From Amoebophrya sp. A120 (taxonomy: Eukaryota; Protista; Dinoflagellata), in contig CAJINV010000004.1 in the NCBI GenBank assembly GCA_905178155.1, forward strand, positions 2,316,228 to 2,380,227: DNA of 64,000 nucleotides, written 5' to 3'. The notes under the pieces are model-generated. The model searched no databases, had not been told where the DNA came from, and was given only the letters and a program-made list of their open reading frames with translations. The number at the start of each line of letters is the position of its first letter. Position 1 is the stretch's first letter. Position numbers and translations under genes: made by a program. Of this stretch, positions 229-63,600 are shown piece after piece.

Positions 229-672
229 GTGAAGGGTGAGTACGAATCCAACAAGAAGCAGGCTATCAAGTTTATCAACAGGAAAAATGCCCCCTCCCCA
301 TATCGAAAACGAAATTTGTGATGCTGTATTTGGGTACAGAAATCGTCGACTTGTATTGCTAGAAGGCCAAGAGACGCAGCTGTGGCCTGAGTTGGAGGCA
401 ATCCGTCATGCTGTTTCCCACTTCCAGTTGCCTCCTGTCATGTTGAAGATGCAAGGCGTTCCACGCCAGCCAGCACTACAGTCCGCATCTTATGCCTTCT
501 AGCATGACAAAGACAAAGCTGATTTGTAACCACAAACCTGCATCACAGATTTCAGTTTTGATACGGGGATGGGGGATTTTGCTTCTTGATAAAGTTCATC
601 CTGGACAAGGTGTTGGACATCGACCTGACGATCCCGAGCAACATCAAAAACGCCCTCCTTATGGGCGCGTGA
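229..672 (+). CDS. V-type ATPase subunit G, 3' part (exons 229-272, 597-672)
   Basis: Canonical acceptor tatcag| at 228. Removing 273-596 gives VKGEYESNKKQAIKFILDKVLDIDLTIPSNIKNALLMGA*, which resembles the C-terminus of V1 subunit G. Confidence 0.65.
273..591. mobile_element. Introner-type TIR element, family B
   Basis: tatcaacaggaaaaatgccccctccccatatc ... gatacggggatgggggattttgcttcttgata; direct repeat aagtt/aagtt. Confidence 0.9.
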
Positions 673-1474
673 AAAGGTGGATACGTGTTTATTAACCGGT
701 GTCGCGTCGGAATTTTCAAATACCACGATCGGCGAGGACTAGGTCATCTACACGAGCTTCGACAAGGAATATAAAGTTCCGGGTCATCGCGAGTGGTTTG
801 TGTGGCAAATAAACTCCTTTGTGCGAGATGAACTGGTATTTTGATGTGACGATCGGATCTATTGTACTAGGCTTCTTCATCTACTATCTTTCTCTAGTCG
901 GATCCGTATGTTTTAGTCAGGTTCTATCCAAATTGTAAGCAAATTCTGTCCCTGCGGACAATCGATGAAAGCAGGATGGAAAAAGTAACTCCACCAGCAA
1001 GGAGAAAAAACGTGCGGCGACCGATTGTGCCGAGGCAGAAATGTTTACGATTTTTTTAGTTGCATTACTTCTGTGAAGGGAACTGGTGAAACTGTTGAGT
1101 TCTTTGAAAACTGGTACTGGACTTTTTCAACAAGAAACCCAAAAAAATACGGAACAGTGTGCTGCTGACTCTGAAAAAGACATGCTAAAGCTGTTGTAAA
1201 TGGCACTGTTCTCCCGGGGTGGACAAAGGCGGAGCAAAGTTCTTGATCTTGTGAGCTGAGCCAAGCTCTCCGTTGCAGGCTGTTCACCTTGCGTTGAGCT
1301 GATTTTTCGACCGGGAGTATTTCTTCACATTGTCGTGCGTTTTTTGCGAAAAAAAGGATCGGTATAGCTTTCTACACCAGGAGGGTGGCCAACATCGTGC
1401 TGGCCGCAGCAGTTTTCTTCTTTTTTGTTTCAGCCTATTCATGAAGGTTGATCCTAACAAAACCGATTAGAATT

Positions 1475-4400
1475 ATGGTGCCTCCGACGCTCCTCTCCGG
1501 TTCCGATGCGGTGGAGGAGATGCACTTTTCGTCACCGCCGATGGCAAGCGCAGACGAAATGGTGGTGAAACCTTCCCACAGCGACATCACCAGCAATTCA
1601 GAAGACAAAATCCGGCTCTATTACCACCAGAAGCTCTCCCCCCTCCTCGTCGCACTGACCACGTCCTGCGTCACCGAGGAGCCGAAGGATTTGGTCACGT
1701 ATGTTTTGAAGTGGCTTCGGCGGCACCCGGGGGCGGCGAACGGGCAGGATTACGTTGGGGAAGCACTGGAGAATCATGACAGGCTTTCGCGGCAGAAGCA
1801 AGCCGGGCTCAAGCAGCTGAAGGAACTGTGCAACATTATCACGCTGAGAGAGCAGCGGGTCGTGGAGGTGTTGCCCGCGGGGCAGGAGGGGGAGGGCAGC
1901 GGTAAGAACCCAGGTCGTGCAGCTGCTTCGGGAAAGGATGCCGGAGATGGCGAGAAAACTGCCAATAATTCTAGCGCCGACTCGGGAGGAAATTATACTC
2001 TAGGCCAACCTGCGCATGAGGACGGCTTCACGACCTGGCGCGACTTCTGCGCGCTGATCTCCAGGAGTCCGGTTCTCGAGAAAGTTCTGTTGGGCCCAGC
2101 CAGTGAAGGAGAAAACGGTCATCTGGGTGGTCGAAACGAAGGAGACTTTTCTACTGCAGGTTCATCTGCTAACACTAGTTTCACTACTTCCAAAACGAGC
2201 AAAGCGAAAGCGCATGGTCCTCTCCAACCCAGTGACACGAGGGAGAGCGACCGGCTGTCTGCAACAAACAACTCCTCCGGGGTAGTTCTTGGGCCAGGTG
2301 GAGAGTATTATCATCGTGGGCAACAAGACCGCGGCCCAATCCCAAACGACCAAGAAGACCGCCTCTCAAAAACGTCCAGCACAGCAAATAGCAAGCAGGA
2401 GCAATTGAGCGGAGGTGCCGCAGCTTCCTCTACTACAAGCATTGGAGGGGGAGGAAGTGATGGTGGAAAAAAGAGCACCGCTCCGACGCTACTGGAAAGA
2501 GCGGAAGTACCAATGCAACACAAGAACTCCGCCGGCCTTCTAAGCACGCTTCTGGAGTCGGAACCTTTTTTCGAGGACTTTTCCTTTGACCGATTCGGTT
2601 TTGCGTTGGAGCAGTGTTTCGAGTTTGGGGAGGTACAACTGTTTATCAAATGTAAAAGTGTCTGGGTCTGGAAGAATGCAACCTGTGATGCTGCATTTGG
2701 ATTCCAAAAAAATCTGCATTGCATGAGCACCAAAGGGGATGCAATCTTTGCTACGCTGAGAAGGCATTTGTCATGCGGAATGCGCATCAAGAAGCCCTCA
2801 AAAAATCTGTATTGCTAGGGTATGCATCACAGACATCATGGCTCATCCTGATGCAAAACGTGCATGACAAGTGTCGGAATCTTCCAGACCCAGACATTTT
2901 TACAGTTGATACTGTTCAGCGACCGCAGGGACGACGAAGATGCTGGTGCGGAGAGCAACAAGGTCTTGGTGTCTGGTGTCGACGGCGAAAAAGAAAAGGT
3001 GCAGCCCCAAAGTAGAACCAACTATTCCCTATCTCTTCCCCTGATATTTTTCCTAGAATCCGGCGAACTACAGCAGCAGGTGACTACAGCGGGTGGTTCA
3101 TCTGCAGTAGTCACTACTTCTGCCACTTCGGAAGTAGGTGCAACAGGGAAAAATAAAAGCACCCCCGGCGACGAAGGAGCGGTTTCGAGACACCAGGTTT
3201 TGCAGCAGCGCATCAGAGTAGTGGGACCCAGTTTTGTGGTTCATTGGGACAACTACATCCGGGCAGCTCAGAAATCCGGTGGTGCAGTGAACGATAGTAG
3301 CGCGACTTCAAAGAAGTTATCGGGAGCTGCTGCTGGTGTCCCCCCTGCTGGAGCAGCGGCGAGCACAGTCGAGCAGGGAGTCCTGGGCGACCGCAAGGAA
3401 ATAGAGGACCTCCTGTCCGCGACCTTCTTCTACGGTTGTGCACGACCTGCAGGAGAAAACAGTACCCCCGCTTATGATCCGCAGAACAAGAAAGCCTCTA
3501 CAGCAAAGTTTTGGAAGCTCACGTCCCTGGCCAAATTTGCGCAGGTGCTGCACTCCGCGAGGCTGTTTGAACTGGGGAGTTTTGCACAAGTGATCAGTGC
3601 AACGCCCTTGTTTTCTGCCTTGAGCCAAGACCAACACCGGAAAATCGCGGAGATCTGCACGATTGGATACAGGTTTCATTTTTCCCGAAGTTGTTATCCT
3701 AGTGCTTCCGATAAAAATCAAAATCACATGAACAAAGTGAGATCAGACATCGACAGAGAAACAGCAGCAACAGAACCAGCAACAACCTCATCGTCGTGCA
3801 GCGTGACAGCAAGCGGAGTGATTGTCTGCAACGGTGCGATGCACTTTCCCGGGGCAAGGTATCCCTTTGCTACTCGGCCCGCGAGCGGGTTGGTTGATAA
3901 AATAATCAAGCAGGAAGAAGAACAGGAGGAGACCTTGAACTACGCCGGCGCGGGGGGACGACCTGTTGCATGTGCTGCGGAAGATCAACATCATCAAGAC
4001 GGGGTCGTTCTTCCCCAATCCGTTCTCGTGGATCCGCACGTCTACGTCCTGGCAAGCGGAAGGCTGCAGATCTGGCAGGAACGGGATCAGTCCGTAGAAG
4101 ATGAGTGCGTAGGAGATCATGGATCACCTCCTTCCGGCCGAGCCGACGAGGAGTTGTACAACCAGCTGTCTGGCGAAATTGTTGGACCGGGGACCTGTTT
4201 CAACGAGATGCAAATTATTAGCCGCACGGGCGGCGGTAGAAATCATTCGGTGACTACCACGACAGCGTCATCTTCATCTGCTAGTACAGGCACGGACCGC
4301 ACGGTTGTACAACGACGAGGACCAAGTGAGGAGGGAGATCATGATGGTGCTCCTCACAACTCCGGAACAGTTGTGGTCTCGTGTGCTCCACCAGCAGCGG

Positions 4401-4910
4401 CTCCTCGTTCAGGGAATTGTGGTCGACATGAGGATCATTCTCCGCCGACGAAGATCAAAACCTCCAAGCCAATCGTGCCAGCGGTTCTACTCAAGTTTTC
4501 CACGGCGGAGTTTCTGGAACGGCTGGGCACACTGGGGACCGCCTTGACGGCGAACGATCGGGAGGTGAAGGTGGGAAAGAGAGTATCAAGTGCAAAAATG
4601 TCTGGGTCTGGAAAAGTGTAAACTTGTCATGCAGATTTTCCATGACCCACGAGGTCCGGAACGCGGGACATAGCATGACAGACTCTGCGAGGTCGCTGCC
4701 ATGCCTCTGCCATGCCTCTCCTGCATGAGAAACTCCCTTCCAACTTGGTCAAAAGTGGACAGCTTTTGGCACTCATGCAGCACAGATTTTTGCATGCTTC
4801 AGATTTACCATGACAAGTTGCCACCTTCCAGACCCAGACATATTTGCAATTGATAGAGAGAAGGAGAAAACGATCCGGATGAGGACGAGGACGGGGAGTC
4901 GGACTACTGA
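1475..4910 (+). CDS. cAMP-dependent protein kinase regulatory subunit-like protein (RIIa/Dpy-30-type N-terminal helix pair + degenerate cNMP-binding domain), about 961 aa
   Basis: IRLYYHQKLSPLLVALTTSCVTEEPKDLVTYVLKWL; PLFSALSQDQHRKIAE, YVLASGRLQI, GPGTCFNE, LLKFSTAEFLERLG. Exons 1475-2643, 2917-4583 and 4861-4910 join in frame (EVQLF|SDRR; VGKR|EGENDPDED...Y*). Confidence 0.6.
2644..2911. mobile_element. Introner-type TIR element, family A
   Basis: tatcaaatgtaaaagtgtctgggtctggaag ... cttccagacccagacatttttacagttgata; DR ctgtt/ctgtt; highly similar to 8042-8303. Confidence 0.95.
4584..4855. mobile_element. Introner-type TIR element, family A
   Basis: About 30-bp TIR; DR gagag/gagag; interior similar to 60669-60930. 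Confidence 0.95.
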
Positions 4911-5805: not shown

Positions 5806-8800
5806 ATGGGAAACGCCCCTCGGAAAAATCCCGGCGGCGTCACCGAGCGAGGCAAATCGCCCGAGCGCGGTGGTGGCGATGTTGGGGGTGCGCAGGGAAG
5901 CACAGTACTTACATGCTTGCGTTTTACTGATCTAGGAATATTCAGTTCGGATTTGTCATGCGCCAGATGCGTTGACAAAGTGACAATTCAGATCAGTGAT
6001 CGATCTTGTTTCTCACACGTTTTTCTGTTGGCGTTCGCATCAAAATTCAAATTCAACAACATTACCAAACCATTTTTTTCACATCAGACAAGCGGAAGCG
6101 CGGCCGTTTCCTCCACCACCCCGCCCGCCGGAGCAGCAGGACCTGCGCAGCAACTTCCGCAGTCGATGCAGAGTGCGGTGTCGCACGATTTTCCGAACGA
6201 GAATATAAACGAAACGCAGCAGGCCGGCGGCCCGGGGGGAGTTGTTTCGAATGCGAAAACTAACGTGTCAGCGAATGCGCTGCGGCAGATGAACAAAGGG
6301 CAAAAAGCTGGAAATAAGGACGAAGAGACCACCGCGGCCTCAACGGCGACAAAGAGTGCGAATGTCGCAGATCCACCGAACGTGGTGCAACAGGATGGCT
6401 TGGAGCTCCAGCTCTCTGGAGGGTCCTCGGAGCAGGATCCTCTGCAAGGCGGTGCCGCCGCAACTACAGCCAGGCGTCCCAGCCACGCCAGTGACACGGT
6501 CTCCGTGGTGTTCACTTGGACGCACGGTGGGCAAAATGTCTTCCTTATCGGCAGCTTCAACAATTGGTCGGAGCGGATCCCGATGGTGCGGTCCGGGTTG
6601 GAATTTCACTGCGTCGTGGAATTGACGAGACAGGAACACCAGTACAAGTTCGTCGCTGACTATCGTACGAAAAAATGTTTCACTCTAAGGATTTTGCAAG
6701 TTTTGCATCACAAGTTTGATGTTCTACATCACAGAGAAAATTTGCCATGCGAGATTCCTAAAGGAAAGAACAAACACAGCTAAATAAAATCTAGTGTCTT
6801 GCGTGTGTACTAGCAAGACAAACACTTCTCAGATACAGTTTCTGCATTACAAGTTGAAACAGTCTTTTCTTGCGATACTGACGAGCAGTGGCGCTACTCC
6901 AGTGACTACCCGATCGTTTCCGATGATTTGGGCAACATTCACAACATTATGGACGTCACGCACTACGAGCCGTATGACCTATTCAAGATCCCGGACAACG
7001 AGAGAGTTGACAATTTGCCGTTCACACAGGTAGAAATTTTGAAAATTTGATGATTATACGTCGTCCGTGAGTAAAAGGAAAAATGTTGTGCACTTGTATT
7101 TGATCTTCCCATAGAACTAGAAGAAGAACAGAGACGCTTTATTGTTCAAACGGTTGTAAAGCTGATGTTTTTGTTTTAATAAAAACTTTTTGCGTGTTGA
7201 GGAACTACAAATGAAAAGTCCTTTATTTCTCGAAGGTGATGCCGGATTTCACCGCCTACGCGACCGAGCCACCGACCATCCCGGTCGTGCTTGCGAAGTC
7301 TGCTTTCGTGGCCGTTGACCCGCCGGTTGAAAAGATGCCGCCAAATATCCTGAGGGAAAACTTCCCCGCCCCATACACCAAATTGGGAAATCTGCAACGC
7401 AGATGCAGAAGTTTTGGGAGTTGTGCATGACAAGTTTCCATCTGCAGTGTAGTGCTGGTTAGAAAGGGAAGCCGCATAAGAAATTATCCGTTTACTCATC
7501 CTGTTTACAGCATTGCAAATGGAAAAACACGATTGGAAATGCCTCTACTCATGGAGCTGCGCATTACAAATGTTCCTGTCATTGCGCATTTGCGTTACAA
7601 CTCTGGAGGGGGAGACGTTTTTACACAGGATACCAAACATTCCGCTGCATTCCATCTCCCACCACATGTACCACGACTTCACCCGCACATTGCGCCCCCG
7701 CGTCCGGTATCAACTGCAAAAATGTCTGGGACTGGAAGAGTCGGGGCTTGTCATGCAGATTTTGCATGACCCGTGAGGTCTGTGATGCTGGTGCTAGCAT
7801 CACAGATTTTTTGAGAGCTTCGTGATGCTAATTACGCATGAGAAATACAACCCTGCTCCCCGCGTGCCAAGAACTGACCCCTCTTGCTGCTCACGCAACA
7901 CAGATACTTTTAGAATCCGCAGACAGCATTACAAGTTCCACTTTTCCAGACCCAGACATAATTGCAATCCATATCCGGCGGCGACTCCTCGACGGCAGCT
8001 TGGTCCCCGCCAACAACGAGGAGTTGCGAGTGAGGCTAAAATATCAAATGCAAAAATGTCTGGGTCTGGAAGGTTGGAGCTTGTTATGCTGCATTTGGAT
8101 TCCAGAAAAATCTGTATTGCATGAGTACCAAAGGGAATGCAATTTTTGCTACGCTGAGAAGGCATTTGCCATGCGGAATAGGCATCAAGAAGCCCTCAAA
8201 AAATCTGTATTGCTAGGGTGTGCATCACAGACGTCATGGCTCATGCAAAACGTGCATGACAAGTGTCAGAATCTTCCAGACCCAGACATTTTTACAGTTG
8301 ATATAAAAGCCGCCTACGCGCACGAGCAGGGCGAGCAGCTGTCAATCCCCGGGATCAAAAGCGAGACCGACAAGGAGATATGGGAGAAAGAGAAGTTCGC
8401 AAACCTGTTTGACGAACAGAACCGGGTGTTGTGCATATCCTGTGTAAAAACGTCCCCACGCCACATTTAAATTGGGAACTCTGCTAGACAAATCAACTAG
8501 TTCCGCTTACTGCGCATGACAAGTTCTTTGGCCTCGTAGTGCAATTCTGCATGAGAAAACTCGACTAGACAATGCTTCTCATGGGGCTCCGCATGAGAAA
8601 CATTTTCATCATGCAGATTTGCATGCCAGAGACAGCTATGGGCTGCGGACGTTTTTCCATAGTATAGTGCACCGCGGTGACGTCCAGGTATGAGTCGAAG
8701 TATCCTGTGCAAAAGTATCGTACTCGCAGTAATCGCAAGCATGCATTACAAATCTTGCTCTTAAGGTAAATCAGCATGACAAATTTTATTTCTGATGCTC

Positions 8801-9084
8801 TGAAAATTTGTCATGCATTTATACGAGTGCGATACTTTTGGTTTTGCAGTGCATACGAAGTACACGACGACCATTTTCATCACTCGCGGGAATTCCTGGG
8901 CGAAGGATTACCACAAAGACCCGAAGGTTCCGTACTGGGCCGCTTGCAATCCGCTGCTGCAAGGGATGAAGTTTCACCCAGGCGAAGTACGGGGGAAAAT
9001 AGATTCATGCACAATTGCCCCTCTTTTACTTTTCCCCTCATTAACAAGTATAATTTGGAGAGCATGAGTCGACGAAGTAAGTAA
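5806..9084 (+). CDS. 5'-AMP-activated protein kinase (SNF1) beta subunit
   Basis: N-terminal MGN (myristoylation-type). CBM48 VVFTWTHGGQNVFLIGSFNNW...HQYKFVAD|EQWRY. C-terminal association domain EPPTIP...P|NIPLHSISHH...C|TAVTSRYESK|YTTTIFIT. Six TIR introns plus a GT-AG intron at about 7030-7235. End is 9067, or 9084 if a last short GT-AG intron is spliced. Confidence 0.9.
6661..6877. mobile_element. Introner-type TIR element, family F
   Basis: tatcgtacgaaaaaatgtttca ... tgaaacagtcttttcttgcgata; DR ctgac/ctgac; splits FVAD|EQW. Confidence 0.9.
7346..7632. mobile_element. Introner-type TIR element, family D
   Basis: tatcctgagggaaaacttcccc ... ggagacgtttttacacaggata; DR ccaaa/ccaaa. Confidence 0.9.
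7708..7973. mobile_element. Introner-type TIR element, family A
   Basis: TIR; DR tccgg/tccgg. Confidence 0.92.
8042..8303. mobile_element. Introner-type TIR element, family A
   Basis: TIR; DR taaaa/taaaa. Confidence 0.95.
8436..8666. mobile_element. Introner-type TIR element, family D
   Basis: tatcctgtgtaaaaacgtcc ... ggacgtttttccatagtata; DR gtgca/gtgca. Confidence 0.9.
8701..8855. mobile_element. Introner-type TIR element, family E
   Basis: tatcctgtgcaaaagtatcgtactcg ... cgagtgcgatacttttg..gcata; DR cgaag/cgaag; near copy of 50085-50237. Confidence 0.92.
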
Positions 9085-10321
9085 TTGACAACCGACATCG
9101 ATAGGTGCCTATCAGCACAACAAATCCGCGCACAGAAAAGTTGTGCCGCCATTAGCAGCCTTTCCGAGCTTGGCACGCAGACAGTGGCAAAAGGCAAAAA
9201 GTGGATCGATCCGGAGTAATTTGCATGACAAACTGCATTATGACAAACACTGGGGTCGTGTGGAGGGAGAGTTATTTTGAACTGTGATACGAACCCGGGA
9301 AAATGCAGAAAGGCCTGGACAACGAGCTGGGGTCCTCGGAGGAATAGGGGACGAGCTCGGCTGCTGCCCTTCGGGAGTAGATAGACCATCTTCAAGGGAC
9401 CGAAAACAACAAACATGGTCCCGCCAAGATGAAGCGAGTTTTTTGCCGACTGAGCAAGTACGTATGCGTTCAGGCAGTTTAGTAGTGTTGCTCCTGCGAA
9501 AGCGATTTTATTTTATCCTCTTGTAGTATGTAAGTAAGTATCCCCAACTCTATCTCACCGCCTCTGATTGCAAACTGGAAAAGCCCTTCAGAGGTCGTCC
9601 GTGAGCAAATACGAATTGACTATTTGAAAAACTACACACGCGCCAGAGCACCGTTGTGGGTCCAGCACAAAAAACCTGTACAGGTTTGATATTCTCAATC
9701 CATCTAACTAGTCGTCGGCCCACGTCGCTCTTTGTCGTGCTTGTTCGCATCATGTAGCAGATATGTTCGTGATATATTGTTACAACGGGTGAGATGCTTT
9801 GTGGCACCAGAGGGCTTCGTTTCCCCGATGTAATGTTTAGGGCGTTACTTGAAAAAAAATTCTTGTTTCGGTGAAAATTTTTGGAATCACAGTCACCGTC
9901 TTACAGTACTAGGTGTTGTGTTGCTGATTTTTGTTGAGAGACTGGTTTCAAAGATAGCTTCTGTTACAAAGTTGGTTTCTTCGGAGAGGCGGTTATCTTC
10001 TCGTGTCTCTTTCTTCCCCACCAAAAACAAGGTTACGATTGATAGAATGCAAAGAGGTATCGCTTCAAAGCGGACCACAAGGCAGAAACAAAGCGAGATA
10101 GTACAACCGAGATTTTTCGCTGCCTACTCTGACTGACTGAGGATAAAAATTCACACACTTCTGCCTTCTTGTTGTGTTGAGTCATGAGGATGGTAAGTAC
10201 TGCCCCAACTTTTTAATTGACACTAGAACTGTTAAATATAACATCAGCAATCAACTGCGCAAAGGCGCCGTGCCAGAATTGGAAAAGGATTTTTTAAGGA
10301 GAGGAAGAACAATCAATCAAA

Positions 10322-13300
10322 ATGAGTCACCTCGCGTCCACCGCCGCCAGCAGTTCCTGGCGGGACTATTGTGCGGTCGAGGAGAAATATGAGAGTGCAC
10401 AACTCCCCCTCCCCCTCATTTGCATTGCACGAACAACAATACAAACACCAGCACGCGTGGGGCCAGTGCATGATAATTATTCATGAGGCAAAAAAGTTGG
10501 TGTGGGCAAATTTCGAGAGTGTGAGGCAAATTTCGAGAGTGTGAGGCAAAAAAGTTGGTGTAGTTGGCGAGTTGGTATAGTGGCCGGGAGATGATGGCGA
10601 TGGCATTTCGGTGTCCGCCTGACCCACCTTCCCTGCGTGACAGCCATCTGCGGCCGTTTGCACAGGGGGAGGCAAAGTGTGTCGCACTTCTGTTTAGCAT
10701 GACAATTATTCATGCGCCGAGTGTAGTACTATTCTGGCTTCCGGAGTCTGTGATGCATAATAGTGACGCAGGGGAGCAATTGGACTTGTGGATTTTGCAT
10801 GAGAAATGGGAACGAGGGGGAGTTGTGCACTGTCATAAGAAACTCGCTCTCTCGGAAACCAAAGTACGGGAATTAGAAATCGAGTTGCGGGAAAGCAAGA
10901 TGCAGCACGAGCAGGAGCAGGCGAGTTTGTATCCCAAGTATACAACGTACCGCCACGATAGTCAAGAAGGATAAGGACACTACCCTGCAAGACAAAGCAC
11001 AAGCTTTGGGAAATAATTTGCATGGTATGACTTCACAGCGTAGAAGATTTGTAAATGCCTTTGCATTTTTTACAGAAACCTTCCGGCTCGGTCGTTGCGG
11101 GTACGTTTTTAGACAGAATAGTTCGCAACGCGAGGTGAGGACACTGAGGCACACACTGGGTATACTGTATGTAATTTTCATTCATGTCAGACAGTTCTAA
11201 GTTTTTCTTGTCGTAGATGTCGGATAAGATAGGATTTTGGATGCACTGTCGGGCGGTTCTTAAGTTTTGGGTCGCGTGTAAGTACTAGCTCTACCGCGAC
11301 AGCGGTTCTGCAGCTTCGAAGGATGATGTAAGTAGACTACTCCTTATGAAGAAGTAGAAGTCCTCTCCCTACTTCATCCGCCAACACTTGTTCTAGGTTG
11401 CCGCAATTCGGAGGAAGCGTACCGCGTCACGGATATCAAAGGGAAAAATCCCCTCTCCCCATATCGAAACGAAGTTTCTGATGCTGAATTTGCGTACACA
11501 AATCAGGTCTGTCTTGCTGGAGAGGACTGCAGGCATATGCCAAGCCTGAGGCCGCGAGAGGTTTTGACGTAGGCGACTAGCATGACAGATGTCTATGCTG
11601 TAAGCCCAACAGCATCACAAACCGCCTGAATAATGCGGCGGACTCTCTGGCTTCGCCTTCTTGCAAGACAGACAGGACTTGTGGCCACGAATCTGCGTCA
11701 CAAATCGGCAGCCGGATGCGTTGTGAATATGGGGAGGCGGGATTTTTCGTCAGAATAACGGACCTCCGCGATGAGATCACGAACTTGGAGCGGCGGAACT
11801 TCGAGTTGCGCATGCAGAAGGAATATCAACTGCAAATACCTTTCTGGGTCTGGAAGAGTGCTAGTTTGTCATGCTTGTCTGGTATGACTCGAGAATCTGT
11901 GTTGCATAGGGACGAAAAGCAGGCCCTCTTACCTGTCATGCAAAACGTAGTTTGCCATGCGGAATACGAATAATAGATACGTAACACATGGCAGCCAAAA
12001 AATTTGTGATGCATAGCTGCGTTTTGCAGTGCCCGTCTATCATTCACTTTTAGTATTACAAGTTTCCAGACCCAGACATATTTGCAATTCATAAGGAGGC
12101 CCTGGAATCCGAGTGCGTGGACTACTTGGCAAGACTGGAAGTTTCGGAGGAGGAACGTGCGAAATTCGACGGCATGCACGAAGACATCGAAGCCGAATTT
12201 GTGGAATTGTGGCAGGAGAAGTGCGAGGATGTGAAGGCCTTGCAGCACGACAAAAGACGGTTGCAGGTTTTCATTTGGCATACAATTTTTTATTTTTTTG
12301 ATTCGTGTCGAATTGGAATTACAATTAGGTGTCGGAAGAAGAAGAATTGTAGATCTAGAGCCGCAGTGACAGTATACGTCGAACCCCTTGCAGCTCGGTA
12401 GGCGCTACGGTTGTTGAACGACGGAGTGCGACCTACTTGTGAAGATGCGTCAACATGTACACAATTCTTGCAGTATGAAGATGAAACAAATTTGTGATGG
12501 TGCAAAAATAAAGCATGTTTAAATTCAAAAAAAAACAGGACAAAGTGTTTGCAGCGGAGACCGCCCAGGAGAAGCAGTTGTTAGAACAGAGTCTCTATCC
12601 ACTGCAAATAATGTGTCCGTGTTTGAAAGACTGGTTCAGAAGTTTGTCATGCAGACTTTTCTTGCCCCACGAGGAGTGGGATGCAGGGCAAAGCATCACA
12701 GGTTTTTTTGTACAGGCTTCGCAAAAATGATAAATTACTTCTTTCGCATGAGATATACCGTCTCAGCATGGCCGAAAATGGGCAACATCGAGTGCTGCCC
12801 GCGCAGGACAAATTTTTGTGCGAGGTACGGGGCGCTGCAGCACAAGGTGCAACTTTCCTTGAGACCCAGACTGGTATAATTTGCAATGGATAGCTTCGAA
12901 GCGTCCGAGGACCTCGCGAAACTTCGGGAGCAGTACTCGCTGAAATTCGACTATTTGGAGAAGCAGCTGGTAGAAGTCACGGAGGCGAAACAGGAGCTCG
13001 AACTCTCCTTGGTCGACGCGAATATGCATCGCAAAAGTATCGCTCGCTGCAGTAATTGCATAATACTAATTTGCTCAGCAAATTGAATGGCAAATGGAGT
13101 TTTTCATGCTGATTCAGTTAAGGAAAGTGATGATTCGGTCGTGCAGTGTTTGCAACTAGTACTACGAGTTCGAAGATACTTGTTTTGCAGAGGATAGGGA
13201 ATATCAAAATGAAAAATCCGCCCTTCCCATATTCAAACGGAGATTTGTGTAGCGTGATTTGTGATCACATCAAATCATGGCGTCATGCTAGAAGGGAAGT

Positions 13301-46817: not shown

Positions 46818-46922
46818 ATATACTGAACTATGTCCCGGTCCAGTTCCCGAGCCCTGATAATCTACCAACGCAAAACACTTCCTTGTGAAGGCAGCCTCGA
46901 ATGTAAACGAACATAACACTCC

Positions 46923-47087
46923 TCCCTTTCGTCAGCGACAACAGAAAGCACAGTCGAATTATGGAAGAATCCCTGATTCTTCGTGCTTGCTAGGAGGATA
47001 CGATGCCCCTTTACTTATTTGCGGTATGTTCGTCATTGTCTTCGAAAGAATCAATTGGGGTACGTGGTGCAGCCACCTGGCGCATGT
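46923..47087. repeat. Dispersed direct repeat, copy 2
   Basis: Diverged copy of 42976-43114. Confidence 0.9.
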
Positions 47088-47749: not shown

Positions 47750-50599
47750 GTGGTCGACGACGAGAAGGACAAGCAGGTATTATTGACAAGACGTGCCCGC
47801 CGGGTGCCCCACTATCACGGCAAGACGTCAACATGGCTTCAAAGAAGCACCTTCCTTGGAAGGGTCCTTTTCATCGCAAGTGCCTGTTCAACAACAGTTT
47901 TTGTTTCGGCCCACACACTGCAGCCCATCACGCTCTTCAAAAAGCGGCGTACGGTGCGCCGGCTCCCGAGAAGCACGTTGGGCAACAACGTTGAGTTTCC
48001 ACGACGCACTCGGGACGGTAAAAATACAGGCGGGAAAGATAATGACGAAGGAGAGGCTCCGGTCTTCGTGAGCAGATCTTCTTCCTCTACTGCAGTAGGG
48101 GACAATGTTGTCGAGGATGATCTGGATGAACCGCCGACGAGGACCTCCGTTGAGCTACAACTACAAGAGTCCTCGCAGGACGAGAGGAAGCTGCAGCAGC
48201 AAGCGGACGCTGGTCAGCTCCTTGAGAATCAGACGGTGTTCTTTATTATGACAAAGCACCAGCACCAGGTGGACAAGAAGCGGTGGATCAAACTACAGGT
48301 GGCGCGGATGCGGCTAGCAAAAACGCAAAAGCATACCACGCACACAATCGAAATAAGGCCTCCACTCTCATTTCTGGAGGCTCTTCCACACCTGCTAATG
48401 GGAAACAAGAAACTTCTCCGGCTGCATCACAAGCTCGTGGATCAGCTTCCTCTTTGTCCTCGGTTCTACAGGAAGATGACGACGAGGTCGTGTATCAGAA
48501 CAGCAACACAACCTCTTTTGCGGAGCAAGGTGCAACTTCGGCGAGAAGCACAACTGGAGTTGTTGAACAAGAACGTCGCGGGTACATGGGAGAAAGACGC
48601 AGGCGTGGGCATAGGCTATCAATTGCAAATATGTCTGGGTCTGGAAGGATGCAAGGTCTGTCATGCACATTTTGCATGACTCGTGAACCTGATGTCCTCT
48701 GTGATGCATGCCCTAGCATCGCAGATTTTGTAAGTGCTTCCTGATGCCTATACCGCATTAGAATGAAACTATGCCTTCTCGCCGTGGCAAAAACTGGACT
48801 TCTTTTGCTGTTTATGCAATACAGATCTTTGTAGAATCCAAATGCAGCATCACAATGTGCATCCTTCCAGACCCAGACATATTTGCAATGCATAGCGGCC
48901 AGGAATGAACGAATGGATTACGATCAATGGGGTCGATTGCCTGTTTCAACACGGACCGGGACGGGTCGCCGAAAAGACGTGCGTGTATGCAAGAAAAAAA
49001 ATGTGTAACTGTAAGTCTGTGATGCAGGAAGTGCTAAACTGTTTACACTTGTCATGCTAGAGGTGCGTCATAGGCCACTTTCATAAGGTGTTTCCACGTA
49101 CTAGCTGCGCATGACAGGTTTCCCTGTAATTCAAAACGAATTTGTGATGCTGATCTTCCTACAAAGTTACACTTACACAGTTTTTTTCCTGGATAGCGTG
49201 AGCAATCCCTTTATTACGCTGAGAGACAAGCATAGACGTCCGCTCATGTCCGTGCGGGATCACGAAGCGTATTTTTTGTGGAAGTCGGACTTCGGGATGG
49301 ACAAAAACGCAAAGGATCTTGCTGTCACCTATTCGTGCGGTATATGCATTGCAAAAATATCGTACTAGTACTAGTAGTAATTGTTGCATGCAAGCATTAC
49401 AACAAACGAAATTTGTACTTTAGGAAGGAGATTTGTCATAGCAGCAATTACTACGAGTGCGATGCTTTTGCAGACCATACGGTGACGATATTGGGGAAGT
49501 ACGAGCACACAACTTCTTTGGCGGGTCTTATGCGGATGTATTTGAAGTTAGCATTAGCAAGCAGAAAGGCGGGCATCATGGCATTTTCCCGATTCCCTGG
49601 GGCGGAGCGGTTCAGTTTCGGGCGCACACCTGCGTCACCACTACCACTACCACGACAACGACGACGACAACGACGACGACGACAACGACGACTTCCACTT
49701 CTACCACGACCACGACTGCGGCAATCGCAATTTCAAGACCCAGAATTAAAGTTGCTCCCGCGGAACAAAAATCGTCGAAAACGGCCGTGCGGAATAAAAA
49801 ACCCTCGAGCAAAACCACGCCGGCACCCACACCAGCACCACCGGCCGCAAAGGAAGATACATTTAGTACGCCGGTGCCGACTGGTGCAGAAGAAGATACC
49901 CGCACGTCGGCCAATCGTGAAGATGAACAGCTCCTAGGAGCCTCTACTTCGACTCAAATTCACGCGCGCAACGCGAACGAAGCTCAGGCCTTGGGCGGAG
50001 CGGCGAGTGTGTCGCATACTTCGCCCGTTGACTTGAAGGTCCTCTCGGCTCCGTCAGGCTCGCCTATCGACCCCGCGAAACAAGTATCCTGTGCAAAAGT
50101 ATCGTACTCGTAGTAATTGCAATCATGCATTGCAAATTTTTTTCTCAAGGTACTTAAATCCGCATGACAAATTTCTTTTCTCATGCTGAGCGAATTTGTC
50201 ATGCATTTATACGAGTACGATACTTTTGCAATGCATCACAAGCGCAACAGCGGTGCGAGAAAGCGCAAGTGATGTTCCGGGACAAGGGCTGCTGCGACTG
50301 CGGGACATCGCCCTTGGTATGAACTGCAAATTACATCGATGTGGGTCTGAAACTGAAACGATATCATGCGCATGTTTCTTTTCAATTGCACGCAGAGTTT
50401 AGAATGCACACTTGATTTCTGCGTGTATTCTCTAAAATGCGCATCACACCTTTCCAGTTTCCAGGCCCAGATTGAGATTTGCAATGCATAGTTGGAAGCG
50501 GAGTGCAACGACTTGGTCAAGTACGCGGGAAGCAGTCCAGATTTCGCGGGGTTGCAATGTGACATTCGAGAGAGTTGCGCGCTCAGTAGTATGTGTTAG
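47750..50599 (+). CDS. Putative secreted mucin-like protein (poly-Thr tract, Cys-rich C-terminus); 5' structure uncertain
   Basis: Hydrophobic segment RVLFIASACSTTVFVSA. Five TIR introns join in frame from about 48230 to ...QRCEKAQVMFRDKGCCDCGTSPL|EAECNDLVKY...CDIRESCALSSMC*. Frame discontinuity near 48220. Confidence 0.6.
48617..48894. mobile_element. Introner-type TIR element, family A (inverted relative to 2644-2911)
   Basis: TIR; DR taggc/gcggc; interior is the reverse complement of the 2644/8042 interior. Confidence 0.93.
48986..49195. mobile_element. Introner-type TIR element, family F
   Basis: TIR; DR gcgtg/gcgtg. Confidence 0.93.
49343..49479. mobile_element. Introner-type TIR element, family E
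   Basis: tatgcattgcaaaaatatcgtact ... agtgcgatgcttttgcagaccata; DR cggta/cggtg. Confidence 0.88.
49636..49717 (+). repeat. (ACN)n trinucleotide repeat encoding poly-Thr
   Basis: accactaccactaccacgacaacgacgacg... Confidence 0.85.
50085..50237. mobile_element. Introner-type TIR element, family E
   Basis: TIR ending in ATC; DR acaag/acaag. Confidence 0.92.
50318..50490. mobile_element. Introner-type TIR element, family A-like (short)
   Basis: tatgaactgcaaat ... atttgcaatgcata; DR cttgg/gttgg. Confidence 0.85.
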
Positions 50600-52009: not shown

Positions 52010-55000
52010 ATGTCTACCGCAGGTACAGCACTCTTGCTGCTGCCCGAGGATCAACATAGGCGCAGCGCGCTCTCCGCGGACGCTGTGGTTTTGAAGACCC
52101 CCACAGCTTCACCAGGGAGTAACATCTTGACATATGAACACAATCTACAACAACTGCCCGGAGATGAACTACAAGTCCTCGGTTTTAACGAAGGTGAAGC
52201 GGCGACTGCTCTCGATGCGCACAAAAATTTGCCCTCTACCAGTACCAGAACAGCCATACCAACCTCGCTCCCGCCCTCGGAAGAAGTTCTTCCCCCGCCC
52301 CGTGAGCACAGCGTGGCGGCCTCCAACATAATCCCAAGACAGGGAACGGCGGGCTCTTTAAGTCCGACCGGATGGCGGGGCCCGCGGGGAAATTTCGTCC
52401 CCGCCGGGGCCATGGACCCGTTTTTGAATGTGCCGCAATGCGAGGAGACGCTGTTCACCACCACGCCCGGGTTGATAAACCTGGACACGGGGGCGCCGGA
52501 CGTGCGGATTCTGAACCAGGCCACCCGCATGATGGCGCAGGCGAGTGCGGAACTGTTGGCAGACCTAGATGCGTTTGACAGTGCTAGTACAACTTTTGCC
52601 GCTACTTCTTGTAGTACGACGACGTCTTCGTGTTCGAAAATACTAAAGGGCCCGGCGACCTGTTTGCAATACGGCCCGACGGTGGGCACGTTGTCCTACC
52701 GAAAAGAACTGGCGAAGTTTTTGAACGAGCAGTTTGTGGTTCGAACACCAACCACGGGTAAAATATCAAATTCTGCTGTCGAGGAAAATACAACTGTCAC
52801 TATCAACGAAAAAGTGGACCCGAGCGAGCTGTTCGAGACGAATGGCGCAACCGGCGGCCTTATCAAATGCAAAAGTGTCATCTGGGTCTGGAAGAATGCC
52901 AGACTTGTCATGCAGATTTTACATGACCCATGAGATGACGCCTGTAATGGATAGCCTGGCATCACAGATTTTTAGCGGGCTTCCTGATGCACCTTCCGCA
53001 TGAGAAATGCCCTGTCCGTGTAGTACAAATTGCACCCCTCTTGCTGGTCATGAAATGCAAATTTTTTTAGAGTCCAAAAACAGCATGACAAGAACAAGTT
53101 GCAATCTTCCAGACCCAGACACTTTTGCAGTTGATAGGCCTGCTTACCGCGATCTCGGCGTTTTTTCCTCCCGCCCAGGAGGCTCGGGAAGTAGTACTAC
53201 ATGGGGGTCCTGATTCTTCTACTAGCGGTGCCCGGGATGTTGAACAAGCAACTACTTCTACCGGAGCGAGAAGGCGGCTGTGTTTCATTGAGGACCCGAG
53301 CTACTTTCTCGCGCCGAAGATGCTGACGGAGCAGGGCTTCGAATTGGTTCCGATTCCGATGGAGGAGGATGGTCTGGACGTTTTTTGGTTGGAAAAAATG
53401 GTCGAGAAGCATTTATCAGCGGTAGTTACCAAAAATTGTAGTGCAACCACAACCACTACCACGTCTAATACCAAGACGGCGCCCACGTCGGCAACAACAT
53501 TAAGACCTCCCGTTGTAGGCGATGGACCAAAATCGAAATCCTCGACGCCGATGGAAGATGAAAGCTCCGCAACGTCTTCGGGGAAGATCAGTAGTCCTCC
53601 GATCATACCAGCGTCGCCGACCCACTTCGCAGCCATGGTGTATTGCATTCCGTCTTTTCACAACCCAACTGGATGCGTTCTATCGGCGGAAAAGAGGGAA
53701 AAATTGCTTTTCCTCGCGCGGAAATGGAATTTGCTAATCTTCTGCGACGACGTCTACGAGCTGCTAAACAACAACAGGAGAAATCATAACATCAGCGGTG
53801 CTGATGTACCTGTCCTCGTCGACACCAGTTGCGTAGCAGTCCAAGATGAATCTCGATCTCCGAAGGAGGGTAGTGGTAGTTGTAGAGACCATGGTGGTCC
53901 CGCAGCGCAAACTCCTGAAACAACCGGACTGACTGAGGACACCAGTGTTCATCCGGACCCCGCCAGCACCGCTTTTCGTGCTCCTGTCGTTCCGCCCAGG
54001 CTGGTTGCGTACGACTACATTGCCTCGACAGATGGTAAAAACCAGTACTGTCTAACCCGCGGCGCCAACGTGATTTCCAATAACACCTTCTCGAAGATTC
54101 TGGGCCCGGGCGTGCGGTGCGGCTGGATCGAAGCAGGTCTGTCCCTGATCGAGAAGCTGTCGCGCACCAAGGCCACCTGCAGCGCCGGCGCGGCCGCGCA
54201 GTTTGTCAGTAGCCTCGTGGAGCGGAACTTGCGGTCGGGGCGGCAGGGTCGGTTTTTGGATGTTGTCCGGGACGAATTCGAAAAGAGACGAAATATCGTG
54301 TACACAGTTTTCTACCGGGCCATGGCGCAGGCCTTGCGGGTGCCCGGCCGGGGCGTGTCGGAGCTGCTGAATATTGATGCGCACAGGAGCGTCAGTGCCG
54401 TGGTGGAGGATGATTTACTGGCGGATATTTCTTCCAACGATCGAAGGGGAGAAGTGATTGGTGTAGTGCGAGGGAAACAAGATCACTCTGTTGCTGCCGT
54501 AGCACATACTTCTAGTGCCGGCGGAGCAAAAAATGTACTTCCAGTTTTGGATGAAGCGTCCCTGTCTTCCATCCCAGTTTCGCCAAGTCTAGAGCGGCAG
54601 ATATCTCTGTCGCTCGACCGGTCGATTTCTTTTCAAGCGCCGGACCCGCTGGCGCGTTTGCACGCCGAGTGGGAACAGGTGAAGGGGGAGATGATGATGG
54701 AGGAACAAGAAGAGAATCCTACTGAGACAAAAAAATCAGGCGTCGAAAAAGAAAAGTTCACTCCACCAGATCGCCGCGGCCCGCCTTTTTCAGGGACGAC
54801 GGCAGCGATCGCGTGTTACCAAAACAACCACCAGACGGAGGACGGCAAGGACGACGAAAAGCGCAACAGTGTTTTTGAACAGATGCCCGGTGATTCATTG
54901 AACTCGAAATCCGAAGAAGAGGAGCAGTTTGCGCCATTCGAGGATCAAGAAGTAGATCATTTTCAACTGGAGCGGTCCCCGCCCACCAACTGGAGCACCA

Positions 55001-57645: not shown

Positions 57646-57708
57646 TGGGAGGAGCAAGTGCATATCTTTCCCCTATAGTATATAGATTATACTGAAAAAG
57701 AAGAAACC

Positions 57709-59765: not shown

Positions 59766-60622
59766 TCAAGCGGGGAGCAGCCAGTGGCTTCTTGCACACT
59801 TGCTCTGCCAGCGCGGAGCGACGGGGGATAGTCCTCGTTCTCGTAACGAGTAAAGGTAAAGATTGAAGGGAAGTTACATCATACAACATAGTCATCGATT
59901 TGCTGCCGTACTAGCGTCAGCACGGTGTACTTTTCGGTTCCTAGATAGTAGTTGTTCTTATCGCCCGCAAGAGATTGATACAAAGACAAATTACTATGCG
60001 AGATGAAAATGGCTTTCGGTCGTTTGTTCGTGTGTCTTCTTAGGTACAACAACTTCAGAGATTTTTTGTCCAAAAAGGAAGAGCTAATAAAGTTCGGTTG
60101 TAGATCATGGGCAACCATAGCTCGGTCGTGAACAATGAAATGATAAGACAAAAAAAGAAGTAAACTAGTATCGGTTCTTCCGCTGTAATCAGTCGTGCAA
60201 AGGAAAAGAAAGCAAAGTAGCGGCGGAATGACTCTGTTTTTTTTCGTCCAATGTGCCAGTCGTTCAAATGTGGTAGTAATCGTGGCTGCACCTCCTTTCT
60301 TGTTTTCTTGTCGTGCAAATTTTTTCGCAAAAAAAAATCGTGTGTGTGTGTCAACACCCAAATGCAGGCCTCCTGATTTCCAATCCCGCATCAAAATTCT
60401 TTCCAAAGGCAATCTTCTTTACAGTCAACATAGCACACCAAGAACTTCTCATACAGAACTGGTTTGAGAATGAGACTATGACCTAGAAGTTGCAACCATC
60501 TTTGCGTTCGTTGTTTGTAGCAGAGTAGTTGCATAATTAGTCTGAGTGTCTTCGTAAGTCATTTTCCCCTTCGTCATATTCACATAGAATAAAGAAGCCT
60601 GAGCACGTCGACCCCACAGGCC

Positions 60623-63600
60623 ATGTCGGGGCACGAATTCGAGGCGTTTGTGCAGACCGCCGCGGCGATACCAAATGCAAAAATGTCTGGGTCTGGGAGA
60701 ATGCCAGACTTGTCATGCAGGTTTTCCCTGACCCATGAGGTCTGGTATGTAGGACATAGCATGACAGACTCTGTGAGAGTTCTATCAAGCCTATGCTGCA
60801 TGAGAAATTGCCACTCGATTAGTTCAAAAGTGGACAGCTTTTGGCAATCATGCAACACAGATTTTTACATGATTCACATTTAGCATGGCAAGTTGCTTTT
60901 TTCCAGACACAGAAATTTTTGCAGCTGATAGGCGATGGCCGGTGACGACGTGGACCCGAACTGGCTGAAGGAGCTCTGGTATTAAGTGCAAATGTGTCTG
61001 GGTCTGTAAACTTGTAATGCGGTGCTGGGAGTAGTGAATGCTCTGTAATGCACAGCCAAGCATGAAAAATGCAAATGAAATGTCTGCGCTCCTTAGCGTT
61101 GCGCTTTCCGCATGACAGACTGCGTTTTTGCATGACAAGCAAAGGGGTCTCTTCTCGAACACGCATCACAAACTCTTCAGTCATGACTGACAAGCATGAC
61201 AAACCTTGCATCCTTCCAGACCCAGACATATTTGCAATGCATATCTGGGAAGGCGCGGACGGGAACGCCAACCGGGCGATCAACCACCTCCTGGACACGC
61301 CCGAGTCCAAGTTCCGCCGGGTAAACAGCAAGACCAGCAGCGGTGGCGGTAAGAGTCCTTCATCCTCTAGCGCGAAGAAGGAGAAGAAGCACAAGTCGCC
61401 AAAATCTGGCTCAAGTCCAAATGGCGTCGACCAACAAGCCTTCTACGGTGGACCAACAAGTAATGCGAATCCACAAGCGTCGATGGGAATGGCCGGAGCT
61501 GGTGCAGGTGGATCAGCCGGGTTTAATATGGGTTACCCGCCTCCAACCGGGGCCGTTCCGGACATGAGCCAGTTCATGAGCCCGGGCATGTACGCATATA
61601 GTACGAGTAACATGATGCCTTACGGAGGCAGCTTCGGCGCAGTAGTTCCACCGCATTCCTACTACGGACTTCCACCGCATCCGATGATGTCCACCTCTAT
61701 GGGAGCCACGGCCGGTGGACAGCAAGCCGCACCGCAGGACCTGCCCCCCGCCGGGATGCTGGGCGTGCAGAACTCGCGGGGGGAGTATGTCTTCGACCCG
61801 AAAACGCACGCCAGTCAGTACGACATGACCTCGCCCATCGGGAAGGCGGCACTGACAAACGGGCAAAATGGCGGCGCAGGGAATAATGCTAACGGCGGGA
61901 ACAATCTTCAAGCAAGAAAGGAACTGACGGGACAGGTAATTCTGAATGAAATGGAAGTCAGTTGTCTAGTGCTCGGAATTTTTTCTGCCTCCAGACGAGA
62001 AAGATTTTGATTTTGTGAATTCGTCTTATGCTATTTCAAAGAATTATGCCGATTTTGGGAAATCCAATCGTTGAGCCGCGTGTAAGAAATGGAGGTATAA
62101 TCGAGTGTAGCGATGCAGTGATGTTTAAGTTTTTCTTTTCCTCTTTCACAGGACCACGCGTCCGCGACGAAATCGTCCGCGACCCCGAACCTGACCCCCT
62201 CGCTTCCCTTTGAGGCGATGCAGGAGAAGCAGACAAATTTGCAAACGCAGATGTTGCTGCAGCAGCAGATGCTGGCCAACATGCGGAATATTCTCCTCCT
62301 CCAGCAGTTCAAGGACCGCCGACGGCTGAAAACGACGGACAAGCCGGAGTGGTGGGAGGAACTGGACCGGGAGAGCGTGGAGAAAAACCCCTTCGCCATC
62401 CGACCGCTCGAATATGACAGTGCACAACTCCCCCTCCCTCTCATTTGTCATGCAAAACCCCAAATCCAAGTGCGTCCCTGTGGCACTAAGTGCATCACAG
62501 ATTCCGGAAGCCCAAACAGTATTACACTAGGCGCATGAGTTTGTCATGAGCAGGCTCCACGTGGTGTGGTGTTTGTATTGCTGTTCATGCGATACAAATG
62601 AGGGGGAGGGATAGTTGTGCACTCTCATATCGAAGCCAGCGCCCAGCAGGTGAAGGACGTTGCCAGCGTGTTGCGGAGAGTTGTCGAGGAACAGGAAAAT
62701 CAAAATACCCATCAAAAGGGAAATAATAAGCAAATAACCTCGGCTACAACTTCCAAGTCCGTGCGCGGCGGGGGTGGAGCGGCTAGTACAACAGCGAACA
62801 AGAAGCAGATTGTTCTTCAACAGCAGCAAATAAACGCCATGACCAGCCCGGCGTCCACGGCAAAGCGGTCCAAAGCCGCGTACTCCAGTCGCATGAGTAG
62901 CAAGGGGACCAACAGCAGCAGCATCTACAGCGGTGGTCAACAGCCGCACGGTAGTGCTGCGGCTCTGGCGAAGATGGTCGTAAACAATCAGCAGCAGAAC
63001 AGCAATAGAGTTGTCGGTGTTAGTACGTCGTCTCCAAAGCCATCGTCTCCAAAGCCTTCCTCCAGAACCGCCACACCACTGTTGGAAAAGCGAGCAGCCA
63101 GAATGATGAAGGAGCTCGGTTGCACTATGGGAGAGCAACAGCAAACAAGGTCCTCGCAGCCGGTAGTTCTTGACAAAGTGCAGTCGCTTCTGGACAAAAC
63201 CATCACGCTGGGCCCGGTACAGGAGGAGGTGGAGATGGTGGAAAACGGCATGGAAACAAGGAGCATGAAAAAATCAAATTATACCGACGCAAACAACAAT
63301 AACAATTTGTTGACGACGCCTGACACCGCCGTCCCGCCGACCTCCTCCACCCTCGGCGGAGCCGGACCAACTACGTCAGCCAACACGACCGCTACACAAA
63401 TCACCGTGACGCAGCAAACCCCGGGGTTGAAAGCCTTTCTCTCCTCCCTCGACGAAGCGATGCAGACCTACTCCACGGAACTGATGCGCGCGGAAAGGAA
63501 CATTGCGAGAGAAGTTGTTGTTGGGAACGGTAGCAGCAGTAGCTTGCTGCAAACGGTGGAGCCGAGAGCAGGTGCCGGAGCAGAACAAGCGGCTTTGGAT

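What the first reader, a model, noticed from the sequence alone, without database searches (positions are those of the whole stretch)
273..62629. Window-wide system of non-GT-AG, TIR-defined mobile introns (45 elements, all in coding sequence)
Seen: 45 elements of 117-450 bp with terminal inverted repeats (mostly TAT...ATA, shared signature TAT-N5-6-G-N-AAAA) and a 5-bp direct repeat, in at least seven TIR families. Removing element + 5 nt rebuilds conserved motifs (KIN17 DRNH|LHMN, AMPK-beta FVAD|EQW and RYESK|YTT, aminotransferase TGGL|LTA, CmcI RK|PDLIIETG). I found none between genes, and normal GT-AG introns coexist in the same genes. Established: Amoebophrya genomes are reported to carry non-canonical IR/DR introner elements (Farhat et al. 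2021); I know of no identified mobilising enzyme or excision machinery. Inference: these are non-autonomous DNA transposons removed precisely by a structure-guided splicing system distinct from GT-AG recognition. No transposase is encoded in this window.
Basis: partly seen in the sequence, partly recalled or inferred. Interest (0 to 1): 0.88.

Follow-up and report, generated by a model that had tools for sequence, protein, structure and literature searches.

The report
Amoebophrya transposon-introns spliced in fixed register
This marine parasite's genes are broken up by 46 small hairpin-shaped mobile elements of an already published kind; RNA assemblies show them cut out precisely, at one fixed position in every copy that could be tested, likely by an altered version of the ordinary splicing machine.

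Summary
In detail: 45 TAT…ATA inverted-repeat elements with a 5-nt direct repeat, plus a 46th that was missed. All lie in coding sequence.

The window is Amoebophrya sp. A120 (two proteins 100% identical), and the elements match the A120 introner elements published by Farhat et al. 2021. The system itself is known.

cDNA-like contigs lack all 25 elements in the laid region (11 by joints, the rest by contig edges or length), while DNA contigs keep them. Removal is at RNA level and equals element + 5 nt.

Not found in print: mismatched repeats fix the cut. Only intron = N-TAT…ATA-NNNN fits all 14 informative junctions. This puts T at +2 and A at +3, as in the host's own GTA donors. Same-family copies are removed in either orientation, the repeat is dispensable, and decayed copies drift to AG at that acceptor (3 of 10 vs 0 of 36).

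This favours a relaxed U2-type spliceosome (about 0.6) over a separate machine; no lariat data exist. A Ginger-like, integrase-related mobiliser (5-bp duplication, TA ends) is already proposed in print. The scan noted similar introns on other dinoflagellate or protist DNA.

The parts
273..591 (.). introner, family B (TATCAA..GGAAAAATCCCC), DR 5/5
2644..2911 (.). introner, family A (TGTCTGGGTCTGG), DR 5/5; 91% identical to 8042
4584..4855 (.). introner, family A, DR 5/5
6661..6877 (.). introner, family F, in AMPK-beta gene
7346..7632 (.). introner, family C
   Evidence: contig length 1670
7708..7973 (.). introner, family A, opposite orientation to 8042 in the same gene
8042..8303 (.). introner, family A; stop-free in frame yet removed
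8436..8666 (.). introner, family C
8701..8855 (.). introner, family E
8988..9289 (.). degenerate element (weak left TIR, GT donor at k=4); k<=4
   Evidence: contig edges 8986, 8957-9319, 9290
10388..10837 (.). introner, family D
   Evidence: RNA joint skip 455
10930..11120 (.). introner, DR mismatch at position 4; k=4-5
   Evidence: RNA joint skip 196
11434..11757 (.). introner, family B
   Evidence: RNA joint skip 329
11824..12093 (.). introner, family A, DR mismatch at position 5; k<=4
   Evidence: RNA joint skip 275
12596..12892 (.). introner, family A-like; k=3-5
   Evidence: RNA joint skip 302
13023..13196 (.). introner, family E; tandem with 13202 across one shared 5-nt repeat (zero-length exon at k=4)
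   Evidence: joint skip 519 covers both
13202..13536 (.). introner, family B, opposite orientation to 273
14151..14323 (.). introner, family E; k=2-5
   Evidence: RNA joint skip 178
14672..14981 (.). introner, family B
   Evidence: RNA joint skip 315
15278..15622 (.). introner, family A-like
   Evidence: RNA joint skip 350; low-depth contigs retain it
16159..16460 (.). introner, family C-like, ends ATG
   Evidence: RNA joint skip 307
16560..16676 (.). shortest introner (117 bp)
   Evidence: RNA piece resumes 16678; length 2794 matched
18653..18926 (.). introner, family A; stop-free in frame yet removed
   Evidence: RNA piece ends 18646
20216..20455 (.). introner, family D, opposite orientation to 10388
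   Evidence: contig length 3104 model
20869..21174 (.). introner, family G
21659..21964 (.). introner, singleton, DR 3/5
22690..22979 (.). introner, family C, DR 2/5
23143..23426 (.). introner, family C, opposite orientation to 32189; k>=2
   Evidence: RNA piece resumes 23429
32189..32470 (.). introner, family C, DR 0/5, in UCH gene; k=4 only
   Evidence: public protein P0001 matches only k=4 of 0-5
33705..33933 (.). introner, family D; AG at k=4 acceptor
   Evidence: P0003 spans it, register uninformative
35327..35563 (.).
35665..35854 (.). introner, family E, DR 2/5, AG at k=4 acceptor; k=4-6
36666..36987 (.). introner, family A-like, DR 3/5; k=4-5
40648..40909 (.). introner, family A, KIN17 gene
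40975..41184 (.). introner, family F, KIN17 gene
41245..41505 (.). introner, family A, KIN17 gene
48617..48894 (.). introner, family A
48986..49195 (.). introner, family F
49343..49479 (.). introner, family E
50085..50237 (.). introner, family E, ends ATC
50318..50490 (.). introner, family A-like
52861..53136 (.). introner, family A, aminotransferase gene
60669..60930 (.). introner, family A, starts TAC
60980..61243 (.). introner, family A
62413..62629 (.). introner, family D

Best explanation
These are Amoebophrya A120 introner elements: short non-autonomous inverted-repeat transposons in coding exons that are cut out of the RNA at one fixed register, likely by a relaxed U2-type spliceosome that takes both cut sites from the element's ends instead of from GT and AG. 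Shown: the elements are in the DNA and absent from cDNA-like contigs; exactly element + 5 nt is lost; the intron starts 1 nt before TAT and ends 4 nt after ATA; same-family copies are removed in both orientations; the direct repeat is not needed. Inferred: a DDE integrase-like (Ginger-like) enzyme encoded elsewhere inserts them with a 5-bp duplication, probably binding the GCATNACA subterminal motif shared by the families. In the pre-mRNA the TIR stem, or a factor bound to it, would replace U1 and AG recognition: the TIR's UAU supplies donor positions +2 to +4, and the 3' cut is measured from the right TIR. Because the TIR is symmetric, either orientation gives the same signals, so an exon insertion is nearly silent.
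For: RNA: 10 of 10 element joints shown skip element+5 (15 of 16 joints listed; the other 5 are GT-AG). Three RNA contig lengths (1670, 2794, 3104) equal models with all elements removed. DNA contigs at 12067-14296 and 14746-20306 keep the elements. Register: k=4 fits 14 of 14 informative junctions, k=5 11, k=3 9, k=1 5; P=1.2e-4 if k were random; element 32189 alone allows only k=4. Spliceosome-like: +2 T in 45 of 45, +3 A in 45 of 45; host GT-AG donors are GTA in 12 of 14, GTA[CT] in 9; a target ending AG|G would give a plain GT-AG intron in this register; AG at the k=4 acceptor in 3 of 10 diverged repeats vs 0 of 36 intact, Fisher p=0.008, post hoc. Farhat found 83 of 89 spliceosomal proteins and U2/U4/U5/U6 in A120 but no U1. 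Precedent: Fritillaria's spliceosome handles non-canonical TE-derived introns. Mobiliser: A120 fam38, Ginger, 5-bp TSD, TA/TA termini.
Against: No lariat, branch point or snRNP evidence was obtained. GCATNACA is not used as a branch site by host GT-AG introns (1 of 14 near the 3' end). TIR mismatches show no G-U over A-C bias (34 vs 46, p=0.22) and TIR positions 4-7 pair in only 14-26 of 45, so hairpin guidance is unproven. Euglenid non-conventional introns also have an offset stem yet leave as circles. The upper bound k<=4 rests on 3 elements. The two RNA runs are one sample and only guessed to be RNA; the annotated proteins may come from related RNA data. Farhat's Table S4 (9 of 9 A120 sites have T at +2) fits k=4 but cannot separate it from aligner-made mirror placements.
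Confidence: 0.6

Rival explanations
1. A separate, non-spliceosomal, structure-guided excision route (endonuclease plus ligase, or the unknown euglenid-type pathway) removes the hairpin; this is the first reader's reading.
For: Ends pair by at least 10 bp in the folded RNA in 44 of 45, median z -5.7; both orientations are removed; no U1 found; no AG, branch or pyrimidine consensus; euglenid precedent with circular products.
Against: The register reproduces the +2T/+3A of host donors and the GT-AG geometry; AG drift in decayed copies; hairpins follow from TIRs alone and show no RNA-strand bias.
Confidence: 0.3
2. The elements are excised from DNA in a sub-population of templates, and transcripts come from empty sites.
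For: They look like cut-and-paste transposons; only 15 of 771 joints of the DNA lay were shown, so rare empty sites are not excluded.
Against: DNA contigs carry the elements unbroken; none of the 15 joints shown is an empty site. A 0/5 repeat is still joined at k=4, which homology repair would not give. Retained-element contigs occur in the RNA run at low depth.
Confidence: 0.04
3. Removal is precise in length but the register varies by element or orientation (for example k=4 or its mirror k=1), as the published 'variable splice sites' suggest.
For: Farhat Fig. 3 and S23 call the sites variable, 1-5 nt from the IR; public annotations of large A120 families list about 26% GT donors and 24-30% AG acceptors.
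Against: 9 of 14 informative junctions exclude k=1 and none requires k<=3; two opposite-orientation family C copies both exclude k=1. Perfect repeats make aligner placement arbitrary.
Confidence: 0.12
4. The genes are pseudogenes killed by insertions, or use nearby GT-AG sites.
For: Most retained elements carry stops or frameshifts.
Against: Spliced transcripts with full ORFs; single-copy public proteins match the spliced models; no register gives GT-AG.
Confidence: 0.01

Closest known systems
Introner elements / non-canonical introns of Amoebophrya sp. A120 (Farhat et al. 2021, PMC7789003)
   Same: Same organism (P0001 and P0003 100% identical). IR motif 'TAT, seven less-conserved nucleotides, at least three As'; 3-5-nt direct repeats; mean length about 240 nt; hairpins; mixed with GT-AG introns in genes.
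   Different: The paper leaves the splice position 'variable/unknown' (IR 1-5 nt from the site). A fixed register, orientation-independence, a dispensable repeat and the cross-family GCATNACA motif were not in the sections and supplement passages I read.
A120 introner family 38, Ginger-like (Gozashti et al. 2025, PMC12130899)
   Same: TIR element, 5-bp TSD, TA/TA termini, same genome.
   Different: About 810 bp with ORFs homologous to Copia/Gypsy; the window's elements are 117-450 bp. Sequence relationship not tested.
Fritillaria borealis non-canonical TE-derived introns (PMC13326754 abstract; PMC11282704 section 6)
   Same: MITE-derived introns with TIR and TSD removed by a modified major spliceosome.
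   Different: There the ends have a consensus (AG-AC/AT), U1 is kept and U2AF duplicated; here +1 and the last four bases are free and U1 was not found.
Euglenid non-conventional introns (PMC11282704 section 6)
   Same: TIR stem offset from both cut sites, TSD-like repeats, no pyrimidine tract.
   Different: Stem at +4/-6 rather than +2/-5; excised as circles; product here unknown.
Micromonas/Aureococcus introners (PMC11282704 passages)
   Same: MITEs that take one splice site from the TSD.
   Different: They keep canonical GT/GC-AG ends and so need a target motif; these have none.

Membership tests
A120 introner elements (Farhat 2021) | Occurs in the A120 genome | tested here: met
   Two window proteins are 100% identical to A120 records.
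A120 introner elements (Farhat 2021) | IR starting TAT, about 7 variable nt, then at least 3 A | tested here: met
   Position counts against the description.
A120 introner elements (Farhat 2021) | 3-5-nt direct repeat at the exon/intron boundary | tested here: met
   Length-5 identity 0.84; 23 of 45 perfect.
A120 introner elements (Farhat 2021) | Repeated families; spliced; non-GT-AG | tested here: met
   Copies up to 91% identical; joints; no GT-AG register.
MITE / non-autonomous TIR transposon | TIRs, fixed-length TSD, no coding capacity, both orientations | tested here: met
MITE / non-autonomous TIR transposon | Cognate autonomous element with the same ends | not testable with these tools
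   No genome held; fam38 shares TSD length and TA termini by the paper's table only.
MITE / non-autonomous TIR transposon | Insertion polymorphism or empty orthologous site in DNA | tested here: inconclusive
   No empty site among 15 of 771 joints shown; no orthologous DNA available.
U2-type spliceosomal intron | GT/GC-AG termini | tested here: not met
   0 of 46 at any register; only +2T/+3A shared.
U2-type spliceosomal intron | Branch point and lariat intermediate | not testable with these tools
   Contigs only; the candidate motif is not shared with host GT-AG introns.
Euglenid-type non-conventional intron | CAG/CTG stem at +4/-6 and excision as a circle | tested here: not met
   Stem starts at +2/-5 with TAT/ATA; the excised form could not be tested.

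The most novel reading that the evidence does not exclude
A120 runs a U1-independent, AG-independent splicing route in which a factor reading the transposon's own symmetric ends (possibly derived from its integrase-like transposase) measures both cuts at a fixed N-TAT…ATA-NNNN register. Any exon insertion, in either orientation and at any target, then erases itself from the RNA, and old copies drift towards ordinary GT-AG introns. This would be a direct route from transposon to spliceosomal intron caught in progress.
Probability: 0.3. Interest if true: 0.8.

Novelty: already known. Interest (0 to 1): 0.45.

Why it matters
The elements are published, but how about 43,000 such introns are removed is open, and their boundaries were reported as variable or unknown. 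A single register (T at +2, cut 4 nt past ATA) makes that testable: it gives exact junctions for lariat or circle sequencing and minigene mutagenesis, would correct many A120 annotations where aligners slid the junction within the repeat, and ties the elements to the geometry of normal GT-AG introns. Orientation-independence and lack of target preference would explain how they could fill exons at almost no cost.

Tried and rejected
No whole genome was held, so no genome-wide register count and no search for an autonomous partner was possible.

No RNA holder was on record. The raw-read run X9 laid only 5 reads and says nothing either way. X3 and X7 are treated as cDNA because they skip GT-AG introns; they are one sample. 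X1 may be the source of the assembly.

GCATNACA as a two-strand branch point: rejected for lack of support. It is about 50-fold enriched in elements (100 in 11.5 kb, 50 per strand, vs 9 in 52 kb) but near the 3' end of only 1 of 14 host GT-AG introns; 15 of 50 same-direction spacings are 31-33 bp (related copies are not independent), which suits a DNA-binding site.

The invariant A at -7 as a fixed-distance branch A: right ends show no gain of the T two bases upstream; dropped.

RNA-level hairpin selection by G-U vs A-C asymmetry: null at all three lengths tested.

Farhat Table S4 and the Gozashti splice-site counts (19 of 58 A120 rows seen) as proof of k=4: rejected, because mirror placements and aligner preference give the same pattern.

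The search for the 48-50 kb gene's public protein found nothing, so element 49343 (position-5 mismatch) gave no third-party test; 33705 was synonymous.

Candidate elements outside CDS (59995-60578, 33398-33858, 39632-39876 and 8 pairs) lack the internal motif and have weak TIRs; not counted. Roy et al. 2023 (PMID 36543167) is not held, and the figures of Farhat's supplement could not be seen; either could bear on the register claim.
Full report
Observation. Scans for inverted ends with a flanking repeat gave 23 strict hits against 0-4 in ten shuffles. A 46th at 35327-35563 appeared when a public protein was mapped back and was the top hit of an end-profile scan of the masked window. The repeat is 5 nt (identity 0.84 vs 0.21-0.29 at other lengths), perfect in 23 of 45. 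All 46 lie in coding sequence of 12 gene models, against about 60% expected. The 1838-aa RT ORF, the DnaJ-type ORF, UTRs and GT-AG introns hold none. Some GT-AG introns in the unlaid genes are my guesses from open frames.

Identity. Two window proteins match Amoebophrya sp. A120 records at 100%. Farhat et al. 2021 (PMC7789003; I read the abstract, sections 10, 11, 12, 16, 32, 36 and supplement passages, not the figures) describe A120 introner elements with IRs starting TAT, seven variable bases and at least three As, 3-5-nt direct repeats and a mean non-canonical intron length of 240 nt; 65% of 66,565 RNA-supported introns are non-canonical. The window's elements are these.

RNA evidence. One search listed 11 runs, none of the holders on record as RNA. 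X3 and X7 (one sample) skip the GT-AG intron 5905-6087 and are therefore cDNA-like. One X3 contig of 2794 nt crosses 10246-17377; 15 of its 16 joints were shown, 5 GT-AG and 10 at elements, each skipping element + 5 nt, one of them covering two tandem elements. Its length equals the model. A 1670-nt contig equals the AMPK-beta model with six elements and two GT-AG introns removed. A 3104-nt contig fits the third gene with six elements removed, though 28 of 768 open-frame intron sets fit that length. DNA contigs of X1 carry elements unbroken. Low-depth X3 contigs retain two elements.

Register. Where the two repeat copies differ, the product shows which letter is kept. Let k be the number of left-copy bases kept. 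RNA gives k=4-5 (10930), k<=4 (11824, 8988) and wider ranges at seven more junctions. Public proteins give k=4 only at 32189, whose repeat is 0/5, k=4-6 at 35665, 4-5 at 36666 and k>=4 at 35327. k=4 fits 14 of 14; k=5 fits 11, k=3 fits 9, the mirror k=1 fits 5. The intron is thus N-TAT…ATA-NNNN. Farhat calls the position variable or unknown. Four literature searches showed no paper resolving it; Roy et al. 2023 was not available.

Orientation. All host genes are on the + strand, yet family members occur both ways: 7708 and 8042 are opposite in one gene and both removed; 273/13202, 10388/20216 and 23143/32189 are likewise opposite.

Mechanism. At k=4, T is at +2 and A at +3 in 45 of 45; host donors are GTA in 12 of 14. 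A target ending AG|G would yield a plain GT-AG intron. Where the last two intron bases have diverged from the exonic copy, 3 of 10 became AG, against 0 of 36 intact (p=0.008, post hoc), and the element with the weakest left TIR has a GT donor. Farhat reports nearly all spliceosomal proteins but no U1, and a review reads the case as spliceosome adaptation (PMC11282704, passages and section 6). Fritillaria is a precedent (PMC13326754, abstract only). Against this: no branch signal, no strand bias in TIR mismatches, and euglenid introns with an offset stem leave as circles. I put the relaxed spliceosome at 0.6 and a separate route at 0.3. These steps are inferred.

Mobility. TIRs, a 5-nt duplication without target consensus, both orientations, all three phases (16/14/16) and copies up to 91% identical fit non-autonomous DNA transposons. 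The motif GCATNACA is shared by the families, is strand-symmetric, lies most often 39-53 nt from an end and is often spaced 31-33 bp; I infer a protein-binding site on DNA. Gozashti et al. 2025 (PMC12130899; passages, section 6, supplement rows) report A120 family 38 with integrase-related ORFs, classed Ginger with a 5-bp TSD and TA/TA termini. Farhat found no transposase in A120. The link of fam38 to these families is untested. Confinement to CDS may reflect targeting, or fast decay where the ends are not needed; the window cannot separate these. PMC12005148 (passages) adds nothing on the register.

Verdict. Real and correctly described, but a published system. The added value is the fixed register, orientation-independence and the AG drift, shown on a small sample. 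Earlier scan notes on other genomes describe similar hairpin-bounded introns; none exist for this genome. Interest 0.45.

Noticed in passing
window 24126-29642 (+): Intact 1838-aa ORF with a reverse transcriptase match just under Pfam's cutoff (RVT_1, E 1e-5), probably a non-LTR retrotransposon; T-rich sense strand, no introns or introners. No other domain was detected.
   Followed up: partly
window 13023-13536: Two unrelated elements separated by one 5-nt repeat copy (three copies of the target in all): a second insertion at the same target. At k=4 the exon between them has zero length; the RNA joint skips both.
   Followed up: yes
window 42968-43094 and 46915-47058: About 130-nt diverged direct repeat, 3.95 kb apart, flanking an intron-free ORF region that ends in a DnaJ domain with a frame change near 44500; possibly a duplicated or inserted unit.
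   Followed up: partly
window 57020-57650: Cluster of CTTCTGAAGG / CCTTCAGAAG words in both orientations in an intergenic stretch; function unknown, perhaps a protein-binding array.
   Followed up: no
window 8988-9289: Element with a decayed left TIR, a GT donor and a non-AG acceptor, partly retained in RNA contigs, with a second TIR-like left end inside at 9110; a possible intermediate towards a normal intron.
   Followed up: partly
window 5955, 13913 and 21354: Single copies of the element motif (GTNATGC) inside GT-AG introns; no wider similarity found.
   Followed up: partly
window 40393-42822: KIN17 gene carries three elements; a search listing (PMC8865678, title only) links KIN17 to 5' splice-site identity, so A120's copy may merit a look.
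   Followed up: no
window 17805-18593: RNA contig shows a 789-nt unspliced leader before the first ATG of the modelled gene.
   Followed up: no
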